Below are positions 925-56,546 of a DNA stretch of 64,000 bases, piece by piece. Source of the DNA: Escherichia coli (lineage in GTDB: Bacteria; Pseudomonadota; Gammaproteobacteria; Enterobacterales; Enterobacteriaceae). The notes beneath the pieces were generated by a model. It saw nothing but the letters and a program-made list of their open reading frames with translations. It was not told the DNA's origin and made no database searches. The translations under genes were made by a program, and so were the position numbers. Location: assembly GCF_003790525.1 (NCBI RefSeq), contig NZ_CP033635.1; one strand, written 5' to 3'. Within the stretch, counting starts at the first letter, position 1; each line of letters begins with the position of its first letter.

Positions 925-1105
925 AAGAAATCCTTTCTTAGAGAATTATTGAGGTCCGGTATCATACCGATTGCAATAATGAAATAAGAGCAAACGAAGA
1001 AACTTTCAGAATTAGGCCCGGCGGCGCAGAAAATTTTGCTATTCGCCTCGCAAGAACGGAGAGCCGTCGATTGACACTAAGGGCGGAGTGACATAATTTC
1101 AGGAG

Positions 1106-1256
1106 TGAGGGTTAGGGAGAGGTTTCCCCCTCCCCCTGGTGTTCTTAGTAAGCCTGGAAGCTAATCACTAAGAGTATCACCAGTATGATGACGTGCTTCA
1201 TCATAACCCTTTCCTTATTTAAAAGCCCTCTTCTCCGGGAGAGGGTTCCCCGTTTT
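1106..1256 (+). ncRNA. sibA: Sib-type antisense sRNA (antitoxin) fully overlapping the ibs ORF; ends approximate
   Basis: Promoter TTGACA (1071-1076) - 17 bp - TAATTT (1094-1099) on plus strand; GC-rich hairpin plus T-run at about 1225-1256; arrangement antisense to the ibs ORF as known for Sib RNAs. Confidence 0.6.
1145..1204 (-). CDS. ibsA: Ibs-family type I toxin peptide (19 aa, MMKHVIILVILLVISFQAY)
   Basis: Hand translation of the minus strand; matches the Ibs toxin family pattern (MMK + hydrophobic core + FPAY-like end) remembered from E. coli ibsA-E. Confidence 0.75.
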   Translation of the reverse strand: MMKHVIILVILLVISFQAY

Positions 1257-1441
1257 AGCGTCCCGCTGAAATCGTCGGCTTACCTCCTTTCGCCCTGAAT
1301 GCAGTCTATCGCTGACTTGCGGATAAAATAGTTTCAAGTGTGATTATTGCGTAACGACTCGCAAAGAATATTTGCTGGCAGGATCGCAGACTGCAAAGCC
1401 TGCAGATTGACAATCTTATCGTGAAGGCATACTTTCAGGAG

Positions 1442-1584
1442 TGAGGGTAGAGCGGGGTTTCCCCCGCCCTGGTAGTCTTAGTAAGCGGGGAAGCTTATGA
1501 CTAAGAGCACCACGATGATGAGTAGCTTCATCATGACCCTTTCCTTATTTAAGGCCCCTTCCTCGGGAGGGGCTTTCCCGTTTC
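1442..1584 (+). ncRNA. sibB: Sib-type antisense sRNA (antitoxin); ends approximate
   Basis: Promoter TTGACA (1407-1412) - 17 bp - TACTTT (1430-1435); hairpin plus T-run at about 1554-1584. Confidence 0.6.
1478..1534 (-). CDS. ibsB: Ibs-family type I toxin peptide (18 aa, MMKLLIIVVLLVISFPAY)
   Basis: Hand translation of the minus strand; sequence as remembered for E. coli IbsB. Confidence 0.8.
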   Translation of the reverse strand: MMKLLIIVVLLVISFPAY

Positions 1585-1769
1585 AGCGTCCCGCTGAAAT
1601 CTTCGGCTTACCTCCTTTCGCCCTGTATGCAGTCTATCGCTGACTTGCGGATAAAATAGTTTCAAGTGTGATTATTGCGTAACGCCTCGCAAAGAATATT
1701 TGCTGGCAGGATCGCAGACTGCAAAGCCTGCGGATTGACAATCTGACCGTGAAGGCATACTTTCAGGAG

Positions 1770-1903
1770 TGAGGGTTGAGCGGGGTTTCCCCCGCCCTGG
1801 TAGTCTTAGTAAGCCGGGAAGCTTATGACTAAGAGCACCACGATGATGATCCACTTCATCATGACCCTTTCCTTATTTATGGCCCCTTCCTCGGGAGGGG
1901 CTT
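1770..1903 (+). ncRNA. Sib-type antisense sRNA (antitoxin), third copy; ends approximate
   Basis: Promoter TTGACA (1735-1740) - 17 bp - TACTTT (1758-1763); hairpin plus T-run at about 1873-1903. Confidence 0.55.
1806..1862 (-). CDS. Ibs-family type I toxin peptide, third copy (18 aa, MMKWIIIVVLLVISFPAY)
   Basis: Hand translation of the minus strand inside the third repeat unit; same family signature. Confidence 0.75.
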   Translation of the reverse strand: MMKWIIIVVLLVISFPAY

Positions 1904-15154: not shown

Positions 15155-15238
15155 TTAATTTCGATTATTTTTCCCGGATGGAAAATTCTTAGAAACCGAT
15201 CACATACAGCTGCATTTATTAAGGTTATCATCCGTTTC

Positions 15239-15325
15239 GCTGAAAAACATAACCCATAAAATGCTAGCTGTACCAGGAACCACCTCCTTAGCCTGTGTAA
15301 TCTCCCTTACACGGGCTTATTTTTT
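15239..15325 (+). ncRNA. cyaR: CyaR (RyeE) Hfq-dependent sRNA
   Basis: GCTGAAAAACATAACCCATAAAATGCTAGCTGTACCAGGAACCACCTCCTTAGCCTGTGTAATCTCCCTTACACGGGCTTATTTTTT matches the CyaR sequence as remembered; ends in a hairpin (GTGTAATCTCCCTTACAC) plus T-run; a -10-like TATCAT lies about 8 bp upstream. Confidence 0.8.
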
Positions 15326-16214: not shown

Positions 16215-17114
16215 ATGGCAGAATTTCCCGCCAGCTTACTGATTCTTAATGGCAAAAGTACTGACAATCTACCCTTGCGCGAAGCAATTATGCTGTTGCG
16301 TGAGGAAGGAATGACGATCCATGTGCGGGTCACCTGGGAGAAAGGTGATGCCGCACGATTTGTAGAGGAGGCCCGGAAGTTGGGCGTCGCAACGGTGATT
16401 GCTGGAGGTGGCGATGGCACCATTAATGAAGTTTCTACGGCGTTGATTCAGTGTGAGGGGGATGACATACCCGCGCTGGGAATTTTACCATTAGGAACCG
16501 CCAATGATTTTGCCACCAGCGTAGGGATTCCTGAGGCACTGGATAAGGCGCTGAAACTGGCAATTGCCGGTGACGCCATTGCGATAGATATGGCGCAGGT
16601 CAACAAACAAACCTGTTTTATTAATATGGCGACAGGCGGATTTGGGACGCGTATTACCACAGAAACGCCGGAAAAATTAAAAGCCGCGCTGGGTAGCGTC
16701 TCTTACATCATTCATGGCTTAATGCGTATGGATACTCTGCAACCGGACCGTTGTGAAATCCGCGGTGAAAACTTTCACTGGCAAGGTGACGCCCTGGTCA
16801 TTGGTATTGGTAACGGGCGTCAGGCCGGTGGCGGTCAGCAATTGTGTCCGAACGCGTTAATTAACGATGGCTTGCTGCAACTGCGCATTTTTACCGGCGA
16901 TGAAATACTTCCGGCTCTCGTATCAACCTTAAAATCTGACGAAGATAACCCGAATATTATCGAAGGCGCTTCGTCGTGGTTTGATATTCAGGCACCACAC
17001 GACATCACCTTTAATCTTGATGGCGAACCGTTGAGTGGGCAAAATTTTCATATTGAAATACTTCCGGCAGCGTTGCGTTGCCGTCTGCCACCAGATTGCC
17101 CGCTTTTACGTTAA
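16215..17114 (+). CDS. yegS: Lipid kinase YegS (diacylglycerol-kinase catalytic-domain family, 299 aa)
   Basis: 299-aa ORF with GGDGT motif ([13 protein letters not shown]). Confidence 0.9.
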
Positions 17115-17187
17115 ATAAAAGCAAGCTCAGAAGCAGGATTAGCAGACCGGCATCATCCCTGGGATCTTCTGCGCTCACCCTTTTTTG

Positions 17188-17841
17188 TTACGCAGCTACG
17201 GCTAACGCTGCCAGTAATTCATTCATCGATAAATATCTTGCACTCGCCGCATTAAAGCAGGTTTGTTGGGCATCTTCTGATACCACAATGGTGTTTATTC
17301 CTGCCGCCTGTGCTGCCTGAAAACCACTCACGCTGTCCTCTATAACCAAACAATCTGCAGCAGACAGTTGCAATTCTCGCAGTGCAGAAAGATAAACTGC
17401 CGGATGGGGTTTCCCATGCTTTTCGTCATCAGCACTACAAATCACCGAAAAATAATGCTGAATATTGAGTTTTGTCAGTACAGCATCGATCACCTGGTAA
17501 GATGAAGAGGTTGCCAGCGCCAGTTGATAGCCACTCCGGCGCAAAAAAAATAACACGTCCTGAACGCCTGGCATCGCTTCGCCCGTCCCGGCAATCAACG
17601 TAGTGATCAGGCGGCGAATCTCACTTTCCAACAGTGCGGGTTCAATGTGTAAATGACAATATTCACACCAGGTTTGGGCAATCTCATCCAGCCTTTTACC
17701 TTTAGTCAGTCTTATACACTCTTCGTCACTGACACATGCGCCCCACCTTGCCAGTGCTCCCTTTTGTGCCTCACGCCATAACCCTTCCGAATCAATGATG
17801 ACGCCGTCCATATCAAAAATGACTGCTTTACAATTAAACAT
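17188..17841 (-). CDS. HAD-superfamily sugar-phosphate phosphatase (217 aa)
   Basis: ORF 17188-17886 trimmed to ATG at 17841 preceded by GAGGAA; HAD motif I FDMDGVIIDS; lies immediately downstream of atlT. Confidence 0.8.
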   Translation of the reverse strand: MFNCKAVIFDMDGVIIDSEGLWREAQKGALARWGACVSDEECIRLTKGKRLDEIAQTWCEYCHLHIEPALLESEIRRLITTLIAGTGEAMPGVQDVLFFLRRSGYQLALATSSSYQVIDAVLTKLNIQHYFSVICSADDEKHGKPHPAVYLSALRELQLSAADCLVIEDSVSGFQAAQAAGINTIVVSEDAQQTCFNAASARYLSMNELLAALAVAA

Positions 17842-17885
17842 TGTTCCTCGCAATAAAGCCTGGCACCACACCAGGCTTGTCGTCA

Positions 17886-19163
17886 TCAGGAAATGGTGGC
17901 GGTCTTCCCTTCACACACTTGCTGATTTGAGAATCCCGGTTGTTCGACGCGAATAAACGGGCAAATAATAAACGCTATCACATACAGGGTGGTGTAAGCG
18001 ATAACCACACCAATAGTACTGAAATAAGGCAGAAGTACCACGGCGATTGCCGGAGCAAGGAAGTTGGACAACCCGGCTGAAAGGTTATAAACCGAAATAG
18101 CTGCTCCTTTATGTTTCGGTTCCAGTGCCGGGAAAACGGCTGCCATCGGTACGAATGCAGCAACAAAGATCCCCAGTGCCACCGCAGGTATCAGCGCCAT
18201 AGCAAAGTTATGACCGAAATGTTGCGGCATGTAGTAGAACGCCAGGCTTGAAAGCGCCATTCCCACGCAACCAAACCAGCGAACAACTTTCATCCAGCCC
18301 ATTTTCTCTGCCAGCACGCCCCAGAATACGTTAGAGAAGATGGTGGTAAAGAAGAAGACTGCCCAGACCTGCAACCACTCAGAGGTGGTAAAGCCCAGCT
18401 CATCAACAAACATCATCGGCATAATTACGGCGAATCCGAATAAAGATAAGGTGTTGATAATGCGAACAATACTGGAAAGCAAAATATTGCGGTTGGTATA
18501 AAGCAAAGTCACCGCACGGCCCAGTTCGCTAAACTTCTCTTTTGTGGTTAGGTTTTGCATATGGCGTGGTGTTTCTACTTTGCGCATAGAAATTAACGCA
18601 ACAGCGCCACCAACCCCACAGAAGGCCAGCGCCAGCCATAATGTTCCCATTTCGCCAATAAGCGGAATGGTAAAACTGGGGATGTAGCTGCCGAATACGC
18701 CGATACCAATAGAGTAAACTGCCCAGAACCAGCCCAGAGCAGCACTGGTGCTGTCACTGCGTACGTTATGGACAATCGCCACAATAAAGGCGTAGAGGAA
18801 CAGCGGATAGGCTAGGCCACGAATACCATAAAACAGCAGGATTAACCCATAGTTCGCCTGCCCCAGACCAAAGACCAGAAACAGCACGTGAAATACGCAC
18901 CACAGCACAAAGCCGATAAACATGGTTTTTTGTGGCGTAATAATTTCGGCAACTACGCCGGAAACCCAGGCGGAAAGCGCTGCCGCCAGGCCATAGAGCG
19001 TAAAGGCAAAGGAGGCTTCTGCAGGCGTGAAACCCAGTGCTTTAATGTAATGCGACAGGAATGCCAGTTCAAAACCGTCTCCGGTCATAAAGATGGCAAT
19101 GGCAATATATCCCCACACCAGATTTAAGGGTAATCCCAGCCATTGTTTATTTGTTAACGACAT
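17886..19163 (-). CDS. atlT: MFS pentitol transporter, D-arabitol operon (425 aa)
   Basis: ORF trimmed to MSLTNKQWLGL...; about 85% identical by eye to the second MFS protein at 26892-28166. Confidence 0.85.
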   Translation of the reverse strand: MSLTNKQWLGLPLNLVWGYIAIAIFMTGDGFELAFLSHYIKALGFTPAEASFAFTLYGLAAALSAWVSGVVAEIITPQKTMFIGFVLWCVFHVLFLVFGLGQANYGLILLFYGIRGLAYPLFLYAFIVAIVHNVRSDSTSAALGWFWAVYSIGIGVFGSYIPSFTIPLIGEMGTLWLALAFCGVGGAVALISMRKVETPRHMQNLTTKEKFSELGRAVTLLYTNRNILLSSIVRIINTLSLFGFAVIMPMMFVDELGFTTSEWLQVWAVFFFTTIFSNVFWGVLAEKMGWMKVVRWFGCVGMALSSLAFYYMPQHFGHNFAMALIPAVALGIFVAAFVPMAAVFPALEPKHKGAAISVYNLSAGLSNFLAPAIAVVLLPYFSTIGVVIAYTTLYVIAFIICPFIRVEQPGFSNQQVCEGKTATIS

Positions 19164-19231
19164 AGTGACCTCGTTTGTAGGATACAAAACGCCGCTCCGG
19201 TGCAAACACCGGAGGGCATTTGTGACAGATG

Positions 19232-20695
19232 TTATTGATTGCGATAGTTCAGGTCGTTGTGATACAGCGCAGTAAACTGCTGATATCGTTGCATCAGCGC
19301 ATTATGACGTTCAGGATCGCTGCGCCAGGTTTTGAAGATTTCAGGTTTTTCACACACTGCCGCCAGTGGTTTTCCCGCAGCAAGACAGGCCAGACGCGCG
19401 GCTCCCAGCGCCCCACCCGTTTCACCGCCTTTATGCGTCACCACTGGCATATCGAGAATATCGGCCAGTAACTGCGCCCAGAATGGACTTCTCGCCCCCC
19501 CACCTACCAGCGAGCATTGCTCAATTGCCGTACCGCTTTCTTGCAGGACTCGCAGCCCATCGGCAATACCAAAGCTGACGCCTTCCAGCACTGCATATCC
19601 CATTAGCGCACGCTGACTGGAGTGTGTCAGCGCCCAGAACAATCCCCGGGCATGAGGATCGTTATGTGGCGTACGTTCACCAGAAAGATACGGGAGGAAC
19701 ATCGGTGCACTGGCTTTGTCTGCATCAGAAAGTTGGGCAATCTCTTCCAGTAACTCTGTTTCCGTTACCCCCACCAGACGGCAGAACCATTGCAGACAAC
19801 TGGCGGCACTGAGCATTACACTCATCTGGTGCCATAAATTCGGTAGTACGTGACAGAAAGCATGGACTGCTGATTGCGGCGCAGGACGATAGGCATCAGT
19901 CACTACAAACAACACCCCGGAAGTTCCCAAAGAAATAAACGCATCTCCGGGAGAAACGGCCCCCACACCAATTGCGCTCACGGCGTTATCGCCACCGCCA
20001 CCAGCAACTACAACCGAAGATGTCAGCCCCCAACGGCTGGCAACTTCAGGGGAAAGAGTGGCAGAAACGTCACAACCTTCCACCAGTTCCGGCATATTCG
20101 CCCGTGTCAGGCCACATTTTTCCAGCAACGAATCTGACCAGTCGCGTTTTTCCACGTCGAGCCACAACGTGCCAGCAGAATCCGACATATCGGAAATCTT
20201 TTGGCCGGTCATTTTGAAACGCAAATAGTCTTTCGGCAGTAAAACGGTGGAAATGCGCGCAAAGTGCTGCGGCTCATGGCGCCGTACCCATAGCAATTTG
20301 GGGGCGGTAAATCCAGGCATCGCCAGGTTTCCCGCTACCTGATGCAACTCTGGTGCGATCTCTTCCAGCTCCGCACACTCCTGCGCACTGCGGGTGTCGT
20401 TCCATAAAATCGCCGGACGAATCGCCTCTCCTTTTTCATCCAACAGGACGGCACCATGCATTTGACCAGAAAGGCCAATGGCTTTGATCGCCTGCCAGTG
20501 GTGACCGCATTTTTCCCGCAGGGTCGACATTAAATATTCCGTCGCTTCCCACCAGGCTTGCGGCGATTGTTCTGACCAGTGTGGATGGGGCCGCTGAATG
20601 GTCAGCGGCGCACTATGGGTGGCAACAATTTCATTGTTTTCATCAATGACCAGCGCCTTAACTTCCGATGTGCCCAGATCGATACCCAGATACAT
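19232..20695 (-). CDS. atlK: FGGY-family kinase, xylulokinase-like (487 aa)
   Basis: N-terminus MYLGIDLGTSEVKA typical of FGGY sugar kinases; AGGAGG before the ATG. Confidence 0.85.
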   Translation of the reverse strand: MYLGIDLGTSEVKALVIDENNEIVATHSAPLTIQRPHPHWSEQSPQAWWEATEYLMSTLREKCGHHWQAIKAIGLSGQMHGAVLLDEKGEAIRPAILWNDTRSAQECAELEEIAPELHQVAGNLAMPGFTAPKLLWVRRHEPQHFARISTVLLPKDYLRFKMTGQKISDMSDSAGTLWLDVEKRDWSDSLLEKCGLTRANMPELVEGCDVSATLSPEVASRWGLTSSVVVAGGGGDNAVSAIGVGAVSPGDAFISLGTSGVLFVVTDAYRPAPQSAVHAFCHVLPNLWHQMSVMLSAASCLQWFCRLVGVTETELLEEIAQLSDADKASAPMFLPYLSGERTPHNDPHARGLFWALTHSSQRALMGYAVLEGVSFGIADGLRVLQESGTAIEQCSLVGGGARSPFWAQLLADILDMPVVTHKGGETGGALGAARLACLAAGKPLAAVCEKPEIFKTWRSDPERHNALMQRYQQFTALYHNDLNYRNQ

Positions 20696-20708: not shown

Positions 20709-22076
20709 TTAGTTAATTAACGCGTAGACGTCAGCGATTTTTTCGCGCAACAACGCGGCAAAATCTTCACGTTCGGTTAAATCGCCAAACAGCGCTTTAT
20801 CACTGGCATAAACAGCGACGGGATCGGCAGACTGGAACATTGCATGGACAGCTGGTGCATCAAGGATGCCATCCTGATATTCATAGGGCAGTTTGCCGTG
20901 ATGCCATTGCTCCATGAATACGTAAAACAGTGCAGGTAACATGGCGGTGGCATTCGGGCGAACGCCTCGCTGGTAGCACTCTCGCAGTGTGGGGGCAATC
21001 ATCGCCGGAATTTTCGAGAAACCATCCGCAGCGACGCGTTGGTTGGTGTCCTGAATATGTGGATTGGTAAAACGCTTGAGTACAACATCACGGTAGGTTG
21101 GCAAATCGATACCGTTATCGCCCAAGCAAGGAATGACATCTTCCGTCACGTAGCGGTCGGCAATCTGATAGATAAAATCGGTCATTGTGCTTTCGTGGAT
21201 ATATTTTTGACCGATTAACGTACCTGCCCAGGCGATGCAACTGTGTGAAGAGTTAAGAATGCGAATCTTCGCCTCTTCATAGGGGATTACCGACGCCACC
21301 AGTTCGACACCGACCTTCTCCAGTGCCGGACGGACATCACGGAAATTATCTTCCACGACCCACTGGATAAAGGTTTCGCCCATTACCGGCGCTTTATCGG
21401 CAATACCCGTTTGAGCCTTGATCCGTGCCGGAAGTTCTGCTGCCGGACGAGGCGTAATGCGGTCAACCATGGTATTCGGGCAAGTGGTATTTGTACTCAG
21501 CCAGTCGATGACATCCTGTTTGCCAGTTAGCTGGAGAAACTCAACCAGGCCATCATGGAAACGTTCACCATTATGGCGCACGTTATCGCAATTCAGCAGG
21601 GTTAGTGGTCCGGCGTTATTTGCCATACGTGCTTCGAGGATACGGGTAATAACACCGTAAATTGTTTTGCATCCCCCTTTAAGATCTGCCGCTAAATCAG
21701 GATTGTTAACTTCCAGTTTGTGACTGGTATTCAGGTAGTACCCGCCTTCGGTGACGGTGAAAGCAATCACTTTTGTCTTCGGATCTGCCCCTTCAGCAAT
21801 CAGCGGTTGTAAATCTGCCTGCCACGGTATCAACTTCTGAATTGAGGTGATCTCTTCATATTCGCTTACCCCTTCCGGGCTGACGGTTTCCAGCACATAG
21901 CGACCTTTCTGTGCACTGAGTGCCTGTACGACATGTTCAGCATCATTACGAATATTGCCCGCAGCAATGCTCCAGCGTTTATCGCCCATCACCTGCAAAC
22001 GGTGTAGATACCACGCCTGATGTGCGCGATGAAAAGAACCTAACCCGATGTGCAGCCATGTAAATTGTTCGTTCAT
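20709..22076 (-). CDS. atlD: Mannitol-dehydrogenase-family polyol dehydrogenase, D-arabitol 4-dehydrogenase-like (455 aa)
   Basis: ORF 20709-22121 trimmed to [21 protein letters not shown] (Rossmann N-terminus); the start could instead be 15 codons upstream. Confidence 0.8.
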
Positions 22077-22288
22077 TGTTTCGTTCTCCATTGACGTTAT
22101 GGCTGAACTGTAATCGAACATTTGAGTTAATTAAGAGCGTTAGATCACAAAAGAACAATTGACCAAAAAAATTACAAATGACCAAATCAAAGCAATAAAC
22201 TTGCCTCGCGGTAAAGCTATGGCCAAAATGACGCTAATCAGTTGCGGGATTTTCACGATTCCGCACGCCACTTTTGAGGTAGGGAAAC

Positions 22289-23230
22289 GTGAACAAAGAA
22301 GATGACATCAGGCTCGATCAAAAAGTACGGGCGGCATGGATGTACTACATTGCCGGACTTAATCAGAGTGAAATCGCAAGTCAGTTAGGTACTTCACGGC
22401 CAGTGGTTCAACGCCTGATAGCAGCAGCGAAAGACGAAGGGATTGTGTCGATTGGATTGCATCATCCGGTTGCCAACTGTCTCGATTATGCCCAACTGTT
22501 AAAGGAAAAGTACCAATTAACCGACTGCAATATTATGCCGGTTTACAGTATTGAAAGTACGCTCGACAGCGTGACATTTGGCTGTTATCAACTGATGGCG
22601 CGTTACTTACAGGGTGACAAACCGACCATCGTTGGTATTGGTTCTGGCTTAACGTTGAAGAAAACCATTAAACGTATCGATTTTGATAGTCAGAATACCC
22701 GCTGTGTGGCGCTGATTAGCGCCATGAATGAACACGGGCAATGTAACTATTACGACGACGTACCGCTGCTTTTGGCGAGAAAAATTCAGGGAAAATATTA
22801 CCAGTGGCCAGCTCCACGCTATGCTCAGTCCCGCGAAGAGTACCAAATGTGGTCAACCAATCGATTGTTCCGCAACGTCTCTACCGTAGCGCGTGACTCT
22901 GATGTTATTTTCGTGGGTATTGGTGCTTTAGGTCGTCAAAGCCCTATTTTCAAAGATGGCTTTATTGATGAGCAGCAACTGGAAGAGTTAACAGCACGCG
23001 GAGGCGTTGGTGAAATCCTCGGACGCTTTATTGATGCTGAAGGCAATGTTGTGGAAAGCCAGATCAACCAGATGATCACCAGCCATGATATCCGCGAAAG
23101 CAACTGCCCACGTATCGCAGCTGCCTGTGGTGAGGATAAACGTCCGGCGATCCTCGCAGCATTAAAAGGTGGGTGGATCAACGGTCTGGTCACCGATGAA
23201 CACACCGCACGCTGGTTGCTGACACGTTAA
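22289..23230 (+). CDS. atlR: SorC/DeoR-type sugar-binding transcriptional regulator (313 aa)
   Basis: N-terminal HTH (LNQSEIASQLGTSRPVVQRL) plus sugar-binding domain; divergent from atlDKT. Symbol assigned by adjacency only. Confidence 0.75.
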   Translation: MNKEDDIRLDQKVRAAWMYYIAGLNQSEIASQLGTSRPVVQRLIAAAKDEGIVSIGLHHPVANCLDYAQLLKEKYQLTDCNIMPVYSIESTLDSVTFGCYQLMARYLQGDKPTIVGIGSGLTLKKTIKRIDFDSQNTRCVALISAMNEHGQCNYYDDVPLLLARKIQGKYYQWPAPRYAQSREEYQMWSTNRLFRNVSTVARDSDVIFVGIGALGRQSPIFKDGFIDEQQLEELTARGGVGEILGRFIDAEGNVVESQINQMITSHDIRESNCPRIAAACGEDKRPAILAALKGGWINGLVTDEHTARWLLTR

Positions 23231-36039: not shown

Positions 36040-36145
36040 GCAATGACCTGGTGGTCCGTGACTTCCCTACGCTGGCATTATCCAGATCAGGTGATACGGG
36101 TATTTCTCAGCCTTCACGCAGAAGGGCACCCCGAGTCGTTTGGTT
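36040..36145 (-). ncRNA. TPP (thi-box) riboswitch in the thiMD leader; ends approximate
   Basis: Minus strand reads GGGGTGCCCTTCTGCGTGAAGGCTGAGAAATACCCGTATCACCTGATCTGGATAATGCCAGCGTAGGGAA, containing the conserved CTGAGA and ACCTGATCTGGATAATGCCAGCG elements of the thiM riboswitch. Confidence 0.85.
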
Positions 36146-56348: not shown

Positions 56349-56516
56349 TATACTCTAAATAATTCAAATTGGTCCGATCCGGCGCAACGTCCCAATGGCC
56401 TGGATTATAAATCTCATTATCTTAATTGCAACGGGGTCCAGCCGTGGTTATAATTCGTTCGTTGGAACACGATGTTGCACAGGCTGTGGTGTTAGGCCTG
56501 AAAATAGTAAATAAAA

Positions 56517-56546
56517 GAACCTGCCTCACCAGCAGGTTTTTTTATT
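56517..56546 (+). terminator. Intrinsic terminator downstream of yehK
   Basis: CCTGC-CTCACCA-GCAGG followed by TTTTTTT. Confidence 0.75.

What the first reader, a model, noticed from the sequence alone, without database searches (positions are those of the whole stretch)
17188..17841. HAD-family phosphatase gene translationally coupled to the end of the arabitol operon
Its ATG (17841, with GAGGAA) lies about 45 bp after the atlT stop on the same strand, so it is probably the last gene of atlDKT. A sugar-phosphate phosphatase cotranscribed with a xylulokinase could act as a safety valve against pentulose-phosphate accumulation. That role is inference.
Basis: inference. Interest (0 to 1): 0.35.

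Follow-up and report, generated by a model that had tools for sequence, protein, structure and literature searches.

The report
Accessory phosphatase gene ending arabitol operon
The gene is real: an uncharacterised sugar-phosphate phosphatase that travels as an optional fourth gene of the D-arabitol operon in many gut and marine bacteria, sitting behind a conserved RNA hairpin rather than being translationally coupled. It is a sound but fairly ordinary finding.

Summary
Window 17188..17841 (minus strand) is an intact 217-aa HAD-IA phosphatase gene. It matches the RefSeq call WP_000481293.1 "HAD family hydrolase" exactly, in an E. coli strain carrying the arabitol/ribitol island (about 6% of complete genomes).

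The protein is a distant paralogue of E. coli HxpB/YniC (32% identity, below the NCBIfam cut-off). All catalytic motifs are present and it is under purifying selection, though weaker than on atlD, atlK and atlT.

The order atlD-atlK-atlT-HAD recurs in 24 other loci, from Klebsiella to Vibrio. Serratia, Erwinia and a Neisseriaceae locus have dalDKT without it, so the gene is accessory. In Pectobacterium and Aeromonas, transaldolase and transketolase follow it.

"Translationally coupled" is not supported. The gap holds a covarying 9-bp hairpin, found in 23 of the 25 loci where this junction could be read, and the gene has its own ribosome-binding site.

A conserved terminator-like element with no Rfam match follows the HAD stop. 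This supports "last gene of the operon".

A relief-valve role on C5 sugar or polyol phosphates remains inference. AraL and Pho13 are precedents.

The parts
17188..17841 (-). Coding sequence of the 217-aa HAD-IA (C1-cap) phosphatase, a paralogue of HxpB/YniC
   Evidence: ORF. RefSeq annotation at identical coordinates. Pfam HAD_2 1e-34. TIGR01509 HAD-IA 64 bits against a cut-off of 29; HxpB model 171.5 against a cut-off of 191. Motifs D10-x-D12, T111, K144 and E168-D169 are invariant. AF2 model pLDDT 94; best PDB match YniC 1te2, TM 0.87.
17844..17849 (-). Shine-Dalgarno sequence GAGGAA of the HAD gene
   Evidence: Read directly from the sequence. Equivalent GAGG/GGAG motifs precede the start in most orthologous loci.
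17856..17878 (-). Intercistronic stem-loop between atlT and HAD: AAGCCUGGU / GUGGU / GCCAGGCUU, followed by UAUUG
   Evidence: dG -14.4 kcal/mol. A hairpin sits in the same position in 19 of 20 loci, starting 5-14 nt after the stop codon in the 18 where a single clean stem was parsed, with a stem of 8-13 bp. Four further loci also have it. On a 19-sequence alignment, 8 of 9 pairs show compensatory changes, 91.7% of cells are paired, and 0 of 500 shuffles reach this.
17886..19163 (-). atlT/dalT, the D-arabitol MFS transporter
   Evidence: TIGR00897 RbtT/DalT/CsbX, 514 bits. RefSeq coordinates.
19184..19223 (-). Intercistronic stem-loop between atlK and atlT
   Evidence: dG -29.8 kcal/mol, z = -3.7. 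A hairpin is present at this junction in all 13 loci examined, with differing stem sequences.
19232..20695 (-). atlK/dalK, D-xylulokinase
   Evidence: TIGR01312 XylB, 636 bits.
20709..22076 (-). atlD/dalD, D-arabinitol 4-dehydrogenase
   Evidence: NF043014 DalD, 756 bits against a cut-off of 600. RefSeq start.
22077..22288 (.). Divergent atlR-atlD control region with conserved repeats (TGGTCATTTG, TTTTGTGATC)
   Evidence: Alignment of 13 species. A regulatory function is inferred, not tested.
22289..23230 (+). atlR/dalR, a SorC/DeoR-type sugar-binding repressor
   Evidence: Pfam Sugar-bind 2e-51; similar to LsrR and DeoR.
17113..17180 (-). Conserved structured 3' element (terminator-like) directly after the HAD stop. 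It fills the spacer up to the yegS stop codon.
   Evidence: 13-bp outer stem, 7 pairs with compensatory changes. Loop with near-invariant GGGAUGUAAACGGUC. Covariance model R1 scores 65.8 bits here and 50-80 bits in 16 other Enterobacteriaceae loci, always directly after HAD; the sense strand scores far above the antisense. No Rfam family matches.
17543..17550 (-). T8 homopolymer run inside the HAD coding sequence (codons for V-L-F-F-L)
   Evidence: Read from the sequence. The truncated public alleles P0102 and P0104 lose frame exactly here.

Best explanation
The ORF encodes a soluble, Mg-dependent HAD-IA phosphatase with a four-helix C1 cap. It belongs to the sugar/polyol-phosphate phosphatase lineage that includes HxpB/YniC, but it is a separate paralogue, not the HxpB orthologue.

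It is the optional fourth and last gene of the AtlR-controlled D-arabitol operon atlD-atlK-atlT-HAD. This operon lies at the very edge of the arabitol/ribitol island, which occupies the gat locus next to yegS.

The gene is most likely transcribed by read-through from the atl promoter. Transcription has to pass a conserved stem-loop that sits 7 nt after the atlT stop. Translation then starts from the gene's own Shine-Dalgarno sequence. The transcript probably ends at the conserved hairpin-plus-U element after the HAD stop.

The hairpin probably keeps phosphatase output below that of the catabolic genes, either by partial termination or by protecting the upstream atlDKT message.

The enzyme most likely hydrolyses phosphorylated C5 compounds that build up when arabitol flux exceeds what the pentose-phosphate pathway can take. 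Candidates are D-xylulose-5-P made by AtlK, and/or pentitol phosphates made by promiscuous kinases or PTS transporters. In that role it works as an overflow or detoxification valve.

Shown here: the gene, its fold and motifs, purifying selection, the conserved linkage, both hairpins and the 3' element. Inferred: co-transcription, attenuation by the hairpin, and the substrate and physiological role.
For: Gene and enzyme class:
- Family assignments and catalytic motifs.
- Confident AF2 model; top fold matches are YniC, CbbY (xylulose-1,5-bisphosphate phosphatase) and the mannitol-1-P phosphatase domain of MtlD.

Selection:
- dN/dS is 0.07-0.18 in eight of nine pairs with finite estimates (0.45 in one near-identical Vibrio pair with few substitutions). 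atlD, atlK and atlT give 0.003-0.10.

Linkage:
- 19 loci from the genome scan plus V. natriegens, C. koseri, E. hormaechei, Pectobacterium and Aeromonas have HAD directly after dalT (after dalK in Aeromonas, where dalT is degraded) on the same strand.
- In E. coli, 326-330 of 5426 genomes carry the gene together with the island.

Operon end:
- No promoter-like site before HAD.
- The conserved 3' element occurs only after HAD.
- The hairpin after atlK shows that such stem-loops are read through inside this operon, because atlT lies beyond one.

Role:
- Transaldolase and transketolase genes follow HAD in Pectobacterium and Aeromonas.
- B. subtilis AraL is a HAD phosphatase inside a pentose operon. 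It is active on Xu5P and held down about 30-fold by an mRNA hairpin (PMC3207120).
- Pho13 dephosphorylates Xu5P and forms a futile cycle with xylulokinase (PMC3582614).
- D-arabitol is toxic to gat-positive E. coli (PMC5094792). That paper cites Reiner 1977, whose title attributes the toxicity to derepressed galactitol and sorbitol phosphotransferases.
Against: - No transcript, protein or enzyme data were available. Co-transcription and substrate are both inferred.
- dalDKT operons without the HAD exist in Serratia, Erwinia and a Neisseriaceae locus. The gene is therefore dispensable for arabitol growth.
- HAD-less operons also carry a hairpin right after dalT. In C. koseri and Vibrio the hairpin is followed by a U-tract. 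It could therefore be an efficient terminator that leaves the HAD nearly silent.
- The E. coli hairpin is the weakest of the set (z = -1.5).
- A phosphatase acting on Xu5P next to a xylulokinase wastes ATP.
- The protein evolves 2-4 times faster than its neighbours.
- Frameshifted alleles exist.
Confidence: 0.6

Rival explanations
1. The enzyme is a pentitol-phosphate phosphatase. It removes D-arabitol or ribitol phosphates formed by side reactions of PTS transporters or pentulokinases, rather than acting on xylulose-5-P. The anatomy is the same; only the substrate and purpose differ.
For: The closest characterised relatives are hexitol- or mannitol-phosphate phosphatases: the HxpB model is the best NCBIfam hit, and the MtlD mannitol-1-P phosphatase domain matches at TM 0.86. 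D-arabitol toxicity in gat-positive E. coli is documented (PMC5094792); that paper cites Reiner 1977, whose title attributes it to derepressed PTS systems. Acting on a dead-end by-product would avoid the futile cycle with AtlK.
Against: The transaldolase and transketolase genes behind HAD in two genera point to the Xu5P drain instead. Nothing in the sequence distinguishes polyol phosphates from ketose phosphates. The clade-specific K/R at position 49, where HxpB relatives have L/M, shows the pocket differs from HxpB.
Confidence: 0.25
2. The gene is an independently expressed or nearly silent passenger. The hairpin after atlT is the true operon terminator. The HAD is then a neighbour kept by linkage at the island edge, either transcribed from a weak promoter inside atlT or barely transcribed at all.
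For: A hairpin follows dalT in HAD-less operons too. A U-tract follows it in Vibrio and C. koseri, and partly in E. coli (UUUAUUG). The HAD evolves faster than its neighbours, and frameshift alleles occur at a T8 run.
Against: dN/dS is mostly 0.07-0.18 and the catalytic residues are invariant across genera whose synonymous sites are saturated, which argues for expression and function. Most enterobacterial hairpins lack a U-tract. No promoter-like site was found. V. albus has a 17-nt gap with no hairpin. In Pectobacterium, tal and tkt lie downstream of HAD in the same direction.
Confidence: 0.12
3. The two genes are truly translationally coupled: ribosomes finishing atlT reinitiate at the HAD start or unmask it.
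For: In E. coli, a ribosome stopped at the atlT UGA would cover the 5' arm of the hairpin, which starts 7 nt downstream. In a 101-nt fold, UCCU at the atlT stop pairs with the AGGA of the HAD Shine-Dalgarno sequence. The ATG at 17886 overlaps the stop codon.
Against: The stop-to-start gap is 44-62 nt in all but one locus. Predicted accessibility of the Shine-Dalgarno region ranges from 0.12 to 0.86 with no consistent masking. The overlapping ATG is not the conserved start.
Confidence: 0.08

Closest known systems
HxpB / YniC of E. coli (hexitol / 2-deoxyglucose-6-P phosphatase, PDB 1te2)
   Same: Same HAD-IA fold with a C1 helical cap (TM 0.87). Same catalytic motifs. The DSExLW substrate-loop residues are shared. 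It is the best NCBIfam and PDB sequence hit.
   Different: Only 32% identical and below the equivalog cut-off (171.5 against 191). The host has its own hxpB at another locus. This clade has G-K/R-R where HxpB relatives have G-L/M-R, plus a one-residue insertion and a conserved W-C pair. HxpB is a stand-alone housekeeping gene, not part of an operon.
AraL of the Bacillus subtilis araABDLMNPQ-abfA operon (PMC3207120)
   Same: A HAD phosphatase embedded in a pentose-type catabolic operon whose pathway ends in xylulose-5-P. It is dispensable for growth on the substrate. An mRNA stem-loop next to its start keeps expression low. A detoxification role has been proposed.
   Different: AraL belongs to HAD subfamily IIA (NagD type, C2 cap), so it is an analogue and not a homologue at subfamily level. 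Its hairpin sequesters the ribosome-binding site, whereas here the Shine-Dalgarno sequence lies outside the hairpin and is not consistently masked.
Pho13 of Saccharomyces cerevisiae (PMC3582614)
   Same: Crude extracts of a PHO13-overexpressing strain show raised phosphatase activity on xylulose-5-P. The paper suggests Pho13 forms a futile cycle with overexpressed xylulokinase. This illustrates both the chemistry and its cost.
   Different: A eukaryotic stand-alone gene. Its activity is detrimental in engineered strains. Not tested for homology here.
YigL, the sugar-phosphate stress phosphatase of enteric bacteria (own knowledge: Papenfort et al. 2013)
   Same: A HAD phosphatase that relieves sugar-phosphate stress. 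Its expression is controlled post-transcriptionally within a polycistronic message.
   Different: A different HAD subfamily (Cof type, IIB). It is regulated by the sRNA SgrS and is not linked to a catabolic operon. Not compared here.
CbbY, a xylulose-1,5-bisphosphate phosphatase (PDB 4uar/4uat)
   Same: Second-best structural match (TM 0.86). It is a HAD-IA enzyme selective for a xylulose phosphate ester.
   Different: 26% identity. It acts on a bisphosphate in a Rubisco context. No residue-level comparison of the distal phosphate site could be made.

Membership tests
HAD superfamily phosphatase | Four catalytic motifs: I DxD, II S/T, III K, IV (E/D)D | tested here: met
   D10-M-D12, T111, K144 and E168-D169 are invariant in 12 orthologues and throughout an 80-locus alignment. 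Pfam HAD_2 1e-34.
HAD superfamily phosphatase | Rossmannoid core fold | tested here: met
   AF2 model pLDDT 94.4, pTM 0.89. All top PDB matches are HAD enzymes, with E down to 3e-18.
HAD subfamily IA (C1 cap) | Helical cap inserted between motifs I and II; match to the subfamily model | tested here: met
   Four helices (residues 19-86) lie between strand 1 and strand 2. TIGR01509 HAD-SF-IA-v3 scores 64.3 bits against a cut-off of 29.4.
HxpB (hexitol phosphatase B) equivalog | Score at or above the curated NF008087 cut-off (191 bits); orthology to E. coli b1727 | tested here: not met
   171.5 bits. 32% identity to K-12 HxpB, which sits at another locus.
HxpB (hexitol phosphatase B) equivalog | Phosphatase activity on hexitol or sugar phosphates | not testable with these tools
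   Needs an enzyme assay.
beta-phosphoglucomutase | Score at or above the TIGR01990 cut-off (189.4 bits) | tested here: not met
   91.6 bits.
atl/dal D-arabitol operon (as its distal gene) | Same strand, short gap, conserved adjacency to dalT across taxa | tested here: met
   44-nt gap here. HAD lies directly after dalT in 23 other loci, and after dalK in Aeromonas where dalT is degraded.
atl/dal D-arabitol operon (as its distal gene) | No separate promoter; terminator after, not before, the gene | tested here: inconclusive
   No promoter-like site was found, and a conserved terminator-like element follows HAD. However, a hairpin also precedes HAD, and it has a partial U-tract in E. coli.
atl/dal D-arabitol operon (as its distal gene) | Co-transcription and AtlR- or arabitol-dependent expression | not testable with these tools
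   Needs RNA data.
atl/dal D-arabitol operon (as its distal gene) | Present in every dal operon | tested here: not met
   Absent after dalT in the Serratia rubidaea, Erwinia and Neisseriaceae loci. The gene is accessory, not a core member.
Translationally coupled gene pair | Stop and start overlap or lie within a few nucleotides, or the upstream ribosome is needed to unmask the start | tested here: not met
   The gap is 44 nt (17-62 nt elsewhere) and includes a stable hairpin. The gene has its own Shine-Dalgarno sequence, and masking of it is inconsistent.
Intrinsic (Rho-independent) terminator: the atlT-HAD hairpin | GC-rich stem directly followed by a U-tract | tested here: inconclusive
   The stem is conserved. 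The 8 nt after the maximal stem hold 6 U in two Vibrio loci and 0-4 U elsewhere. C. koseri has UUUUU. The E. coli tail is UUUAUUG if the two A-U closing pairs are left open. The scan did not call it a terminator.

The most novel reading that the evidence does not exclude
The dal-linked HAD clade would be a dedicated C5 ketose- or pentitol-phosphate phosphatase. Its invariant G-K/R-R cap motif and W-C pair would give it a specificity distinct from HxpB.

In addition, the conserved roughly 65-nt element after its stop would be more than a terminator: a new 3'-UTR-derived regulatory RNA or protein-binding RNA tied to pentitol metabolism. The loop GGGAUGUAAACGGUC is better conserved than the coding sequence itself. 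The element has no Rfam family and is found only behind this gene in Enterobacteriaceae.
Probability: 0.15. Interest if true: 0.55.

Novelty: new member of a known kind. Interest (0 to 1): 0.3.

Why it matters
The classical dal/atl and rbt pentitol operons are textbook models of enzyme evolution and gene acquisition, and they are described as three-gene units. This work shows that a fourth gene is co-inherited with them across many genera, that it encodes a phosphatase, and that it sits behind a conserved RNA hairpin.

Together these facts suggest that overload of phosphorylated C5 intermediates is a recurring cost of arabitol catabolism, and that bacteria meet it with a tightly dosed relief enzyme. 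The same logic appears independently in B. subtilis AraL.

There are practical uses. The gene is a candidate xylulose- or pentitol-phosphate phosphatase for making rare sugars or polyols. It is also a possible cause of ATP-wasting futile cycling in engineered pentose pathways.

The gain in understanding is incremental rather than surprising.

Tried and rejected
- **Longer ORF from ATG 17886 (232 aa, overlapping the atlT stop).** Rejected. Homologue N-termini do not include the extension, and it runs through the conserved hairpin.
- **HxpB orthologue.** Rejected: below the cut-off, 32% identity, and the host has its own hxpB.
- **Pseudogene or decaying gene.** Rejected for the window allele: motifs are intact and dN/dS is well below 1. 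Frameshifted alleles do exist in public data.
- **Hairpin sequesters the Shine-Dalgarno sequence, as in AraL.** Not supported as a general feature. Predicted unpaired probability of the Shine-Dalgarno zone ranges from 0.12 to 0.86.
- **Hairpin is a known RNA family.** No Rfam match at gathering threshold or up to E = 10.
- **The 3' element is a dispersed repeat.** Rejected within the data held. The covariance model finds one copy per locus, always after HAD, in about 650 kb searched. A 15-mer from the loop has no meaningful second site in the window. One degenerate pattern search was badly designed and uninformative.
- **The 3' element loop shares the putative AtlR operator of the promoter region.** Both contain GGTC and GTAA, but in a different order and spacing. 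Not convincing and dropped.
- **Literature.** Searches for a described gene downstream of dalT, or for a xylulose-5-P or pentitol-phosphate phosphatase in this operon, found nothing specific. The E. coli C genome paper only lists it as 'yniC_1' among strain-specific genes. Reiner 1977 (PMC221841) is not held. A search for the Kuznetsova HAD survey returned nothing.
Full report
**Where the window comes from.** The window is an E. coli chromosome segment running mdtBCD-baeSR-yegPQRS, then the arabitol/ribitol island, then fbaB-yegT and beyond. It is essentially identical to E. coli 4/2-1 and many other strains. The island lies between yegS and fbaB. Its gene order is: HAD, atlT, atlK and atlD on the minus strand; atlR on the plus strand; a LacI-type regulator on the minus strand; then an SDR dehydrogenase, a pentulose kinase and a second RbtT/DalT transporter on the plus strand. 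Only 326-330 of 5426 complete E. coli genomes carry it. In all other genomes, similarity to the window stops exactly at the last base of the yegS stop codon, window 17114. The HAD gene is therefore the outermost gene of the island.

**Checking the observation.** The ATG is at 17841, GAGGAA at 17849..17844, the stop codon at 17190..17188, and the atlT stop at 17888..17886, leaving a 44-nt gap. PGAP annotates the same 654 bp as 'HAD family hydrolase' WP_000481293.1. A longer reading frame from an ATG at 17886 overlaps the atlT stop (TGATGA), and some pipelines call it (P0001, 232 aa). Orthologues from twelve genera, however, all start M-x-x-K-A-V-I-F-D-M-D-G, so 17841 is the real start.

**What the protein is.**
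- Pfam HAD_2 (1e-34) and the HAD-IA subfamily model (64 bits against a cut-off of 29) are met.
- The best specific model is HxpB, but at 171.5 bits it falls below the 191-bit cut-off.
- Identity to the host's own HxpB (b1727) is only 32%.
- The four catalytic motifs (D10-x-D12, T111, K144, E168-D169) are invariant.
- An AlphaFold model built on 12 orthologues is confident (pLDDT 94). It shows a Rossmannoid core with a four-helix cap.
- The closest solved structures are YniC/HxpB (TM 0.87), CbbY xylulose-1,5-bisphosphate phosphatase (0.86) and the mannitol-1-phosphate phosphatase domain of MtlD (0.86).
- The dal-linked clade and its nearest kin carry G-K/R-R at residues 48-50, where the wider HxpB-like family has G-L/M/F-R. 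They also have a one-residue insertion and a W-C pair. In HxpB the equivalent Leu52 is predicted to contact the sugar (PMC10576766). The substrate pocket therefore probably differs.

**Selection.** In nine species pairs with unsaturated synonymous sites, HAD dN/dS is 0.07-0.18 in eight. The ninth, a near-identical Vibrio pair with few substitutions, gives 0.45. The values for atlD, atlK and atlT are 0.003-0.10. Amino-acid identity between E. coli and Klebsiella is 61% for HAD but 84-86% for its three neighbours. The gene is functional but under looser constraint, as expected for an accessory enzyme.

**Linkage.**
- A scan of one genome per species returned 80 loci. In 19 of them HAD lies directly downstream of dalT on the same strand, with dalK, dalD and a divergent dalR upstream wherever the contig reaches that far. 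The taxa are Klebsiella (4 species), Raoultella, two Enterobacter-labelled genomes, Rouxiella, Mangrovibacter, Cedecea, Superficieibacter, Pluralibacter, three Vibrio and two MAGs.
- Only two loci with at least 48% identity lack the linkage: a Flavobacterium and V. ruber.
- Look-ups added V. natriegens, C. koseri, E. hormaechei, Pectobacterium odoriferum and Aeromonas caviae.
- In Pectobacterium and Aeromonas, transaldolase and transketolase genes follow HAD in the same direction, 45-79 nt after it. These are the enzymes that drain xylulose-5-P.
- Conversely, Serratia rubidaea, an Erwinia and a Neisseriaceae locus have dalR-dalDKT with no HAD. The gene is a recurrent but optional fourth gene.

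**The junction with atlT.** The 44-nt spacer folds into a 9-bp stem (17878..17870 with 17864..17856, loop GUGGU, dG -14.4 kcal/mol).
- A hairpin sits at the same place in 19 of 20 loci compared. In the 18 where a single clean stem was parsed, it starts 5-14 nt after the stop codon (mostly 7-10), has a stem of 8-13 bp and ends 13-22 nt before the start. Four further loci also have it.
- The stem sequences differ but pairing is kept. On a 19-sequence alignment, 8 of 9 pairs show double compensatory changes and 91.7% of cells are paired. The covariation score is 0.54, against at most 0.17 for slid registers, and 0 of 500 shuffles reach it.
- A U-tract follows the stem in the two Vibrio loci scored (6 of 8 U) and in C. 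koseri (UUUUU). In E. coli the tail is partial (UUUAUUG). Most enterobacterial copies have none. The conserved role is therefore probably not full intrinsic termination.
- The Shine-Dalgarno sequence is not consistently masked.
- The atlK-atlT spacer holds a similar conserved hairpin (19223..19184, z = -3.7) in all 13 loci checked. Because atlT lies beyond that hairpin, such structures must be read through in this operon.
- HAD-less operons also carry a hairpin just after dalT.

Taken together, the hairpins look like intercistronic elements that grade expression along the message, either by partial termination or by blocking 3' decay. The HAD would be the least expressed cistron.

**The operon end.** Directly after the HAD stop lies a conserved structured element (window about 17180..17113).
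- It has a 13-bp outer stem (consensus GUGAGCGCAGAA / UUCUGCGCUCAC, with 7 pairs showing compensatory changes).
- It has a loop with near-invariant GGGAUGUAAACGGUC, and usually a U-rich tail.
- A covariance model finds it once per locus, always right after HAD, in all 17 Enterobacteriaceae loci. Sense-strand scores are 50-80 bits against 13-33 bits for the antisense strand.
- It is absent from the Vibrio, Rouxiella, Pectobacterium, Aeromonas and HAD-less loci searched, and elsewhere in about 650 kb.
- No Rfam family matches it.
- In E. coli its U-tail overlaps the yegS stop codon, so it could terminate both convergent genes.

I could not explain why its loop sequence is better conserved than the protein.

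**Likely function.** Nothing here measures activity. The argument for an overflow valve on phosphorylated C5 compounds rests on five points:
1. The enzyme class and its nearest characterised relatives.
2. Persistent linkage to a xylulokinase.
3. The tal-tkt extension in two genera.
4. The B. subtilis precedent AraL. This is a HAD phosphatase in the arabinose operon. It is active on xylulose-5-P, dispensable for growth, held down about 30-fold by an mRNA hairpin, and proposed to detoxify accumulated sugar phosphates (PMC3207120).
5. Pho13, whose xylulose-5-P phosphatase activity forms a costly futile cycle with xylulokinase (PMC3582614). This would explain why expression needs to be kept low.

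An equally reasonable substrate is a pentitol phosphate. D-arabitol is toxic to gat-positive E. coli (PMC5094792). That paper cites Reiner 1977, whose title attributes the toxicity to derepressed galactitol and sorbitol phosphotransferases. The closest relatives are also polyol-phosphate phosphatases. I cannot separate these two readings.

**Prior knowledge and novelty.** The gene is annotated, and the E. coli C genome paper lists it as 'yniC_1' among strain-specific genes (PMC6805351). In the library held I found no description of it as part of the dal/atl operon and no biochemical work. It is a new, uncharacterised member of a familiar kind: a promiscuous HAD phosphatase tucked into a catabolic operon. 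The finding is sound but modest. The unexplained 3' element is the most unusual thing in the neighbourhood.

Noticed in passing
window 17113-17180 (minus strand); also L002 8665-8746, L004 8662-8743, L089 6662-6741 and others: A conserved structured element of about 65 nt lies right after the HAD stop. It has a 13-bp covarying outer stem, a near-invariant loop GGGAUGUAAACGGUC and a U-rich tail. It occurs only behind this gene in 17 Enterobacteriaceae loci and matches no Rfam family. The loop is better conserved than the HAD protein itself, which is unexplained.
   Followed up: partly
window 19184-19223 (minus strand): A strong hairpin (dG -29.8 kcal/mol, z = -3.7) with a nearby U-run lies in the atlK-atlT spacer. 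A hairpin is present at the same junction in all 13 species checked, followed by a conserved CCUGUACCCUAAAAACGAGGUCA leader before atlT.
   Followed up: partly
L091 6001-9698 (Pectobacterium odoriferum); L092 6001-9713 (Aeromonas caviae): In these genera the operon continues past HAD into transaldolase and transketolase genes (dalD-dalK-dalT-HAD-tal-tkt). In the Aeromonas locus dalT is reduced to a 62-aa remnant and no dalR is present.
   Followed up: partly
window 17114 / 16950-17114: Similarity to gat-type E. coli genomes ends exactly at the yegS stop codon. The last 165 bp of yegS are only 80-90% identical to 3842 of the 5385 matching records, and about 95% identical to K-12. This suggests the island arrived together with flanking yegS sequence.
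   Followed up: partly
window 17543-17550 (minus strand): A T8 homopolymer run lies inside the HAD gene. The truncated public alleles P0102 (134 aa) and P0104 (149 aa), each representing 12-13 sequences, lose frame exactly here. They may be real slippage variants or sequencing errors.
   Followed up: no
protein P0003 (Escherichia sp. MR, 81% identical orthologue): Motif I reads D-M-N instead of D-M-D, so the general acid/base aspartate is replaced. This allele may be catalytically impaired.
   Followed up: no
L088 833-1995 (E. coli CX21 and sister strains): An IS3 element is inserted in the yegS-HAD spacer, inside or next to the 3' element, without breaking either gene.
   Followed up: no
window 22077-22288: The atlR-atlD control region carries repeated TGGTCATTTG-like motifs and a TTTTGTGATC motif, conserved from E. 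coli to Vibrio. These are probably AtlR operators and a CRP half-site.
   Followed up: partly
L005, dalK-dalT spacer (Enterobacter sp. 10-1): The spacer is 194 nt instead of about 68 nt, because of a long imperfect palindrome that looks like an ERIC-type repeat. It is inserted upstream of the conserved hairpin.
   Followed up: no
L013 7267-8654 (Ulvibacter); L019 3002-4396 (Lutibacter): In Flavobacteriia the closest non-dal homologues (46-47% identity) lie immediately after an NrtR/AraR-type NUDIX-wHTH regulator. In Ulvibacter (the locus scanned with Pfam) this is next to a sugar ABC transporter. That is another sugar-utilisation context.
   Followed up: partly
window 1071-1877, 15237-15322, 36047-36143, 56468-56543: Rfam matches at gathering score: three tandem SIB antitoxin RNAs, CyaR between yegQ and yegR, the thiM TPP riboswitch, and an OrzO-P antitoxin RNA.
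   Followed up: no
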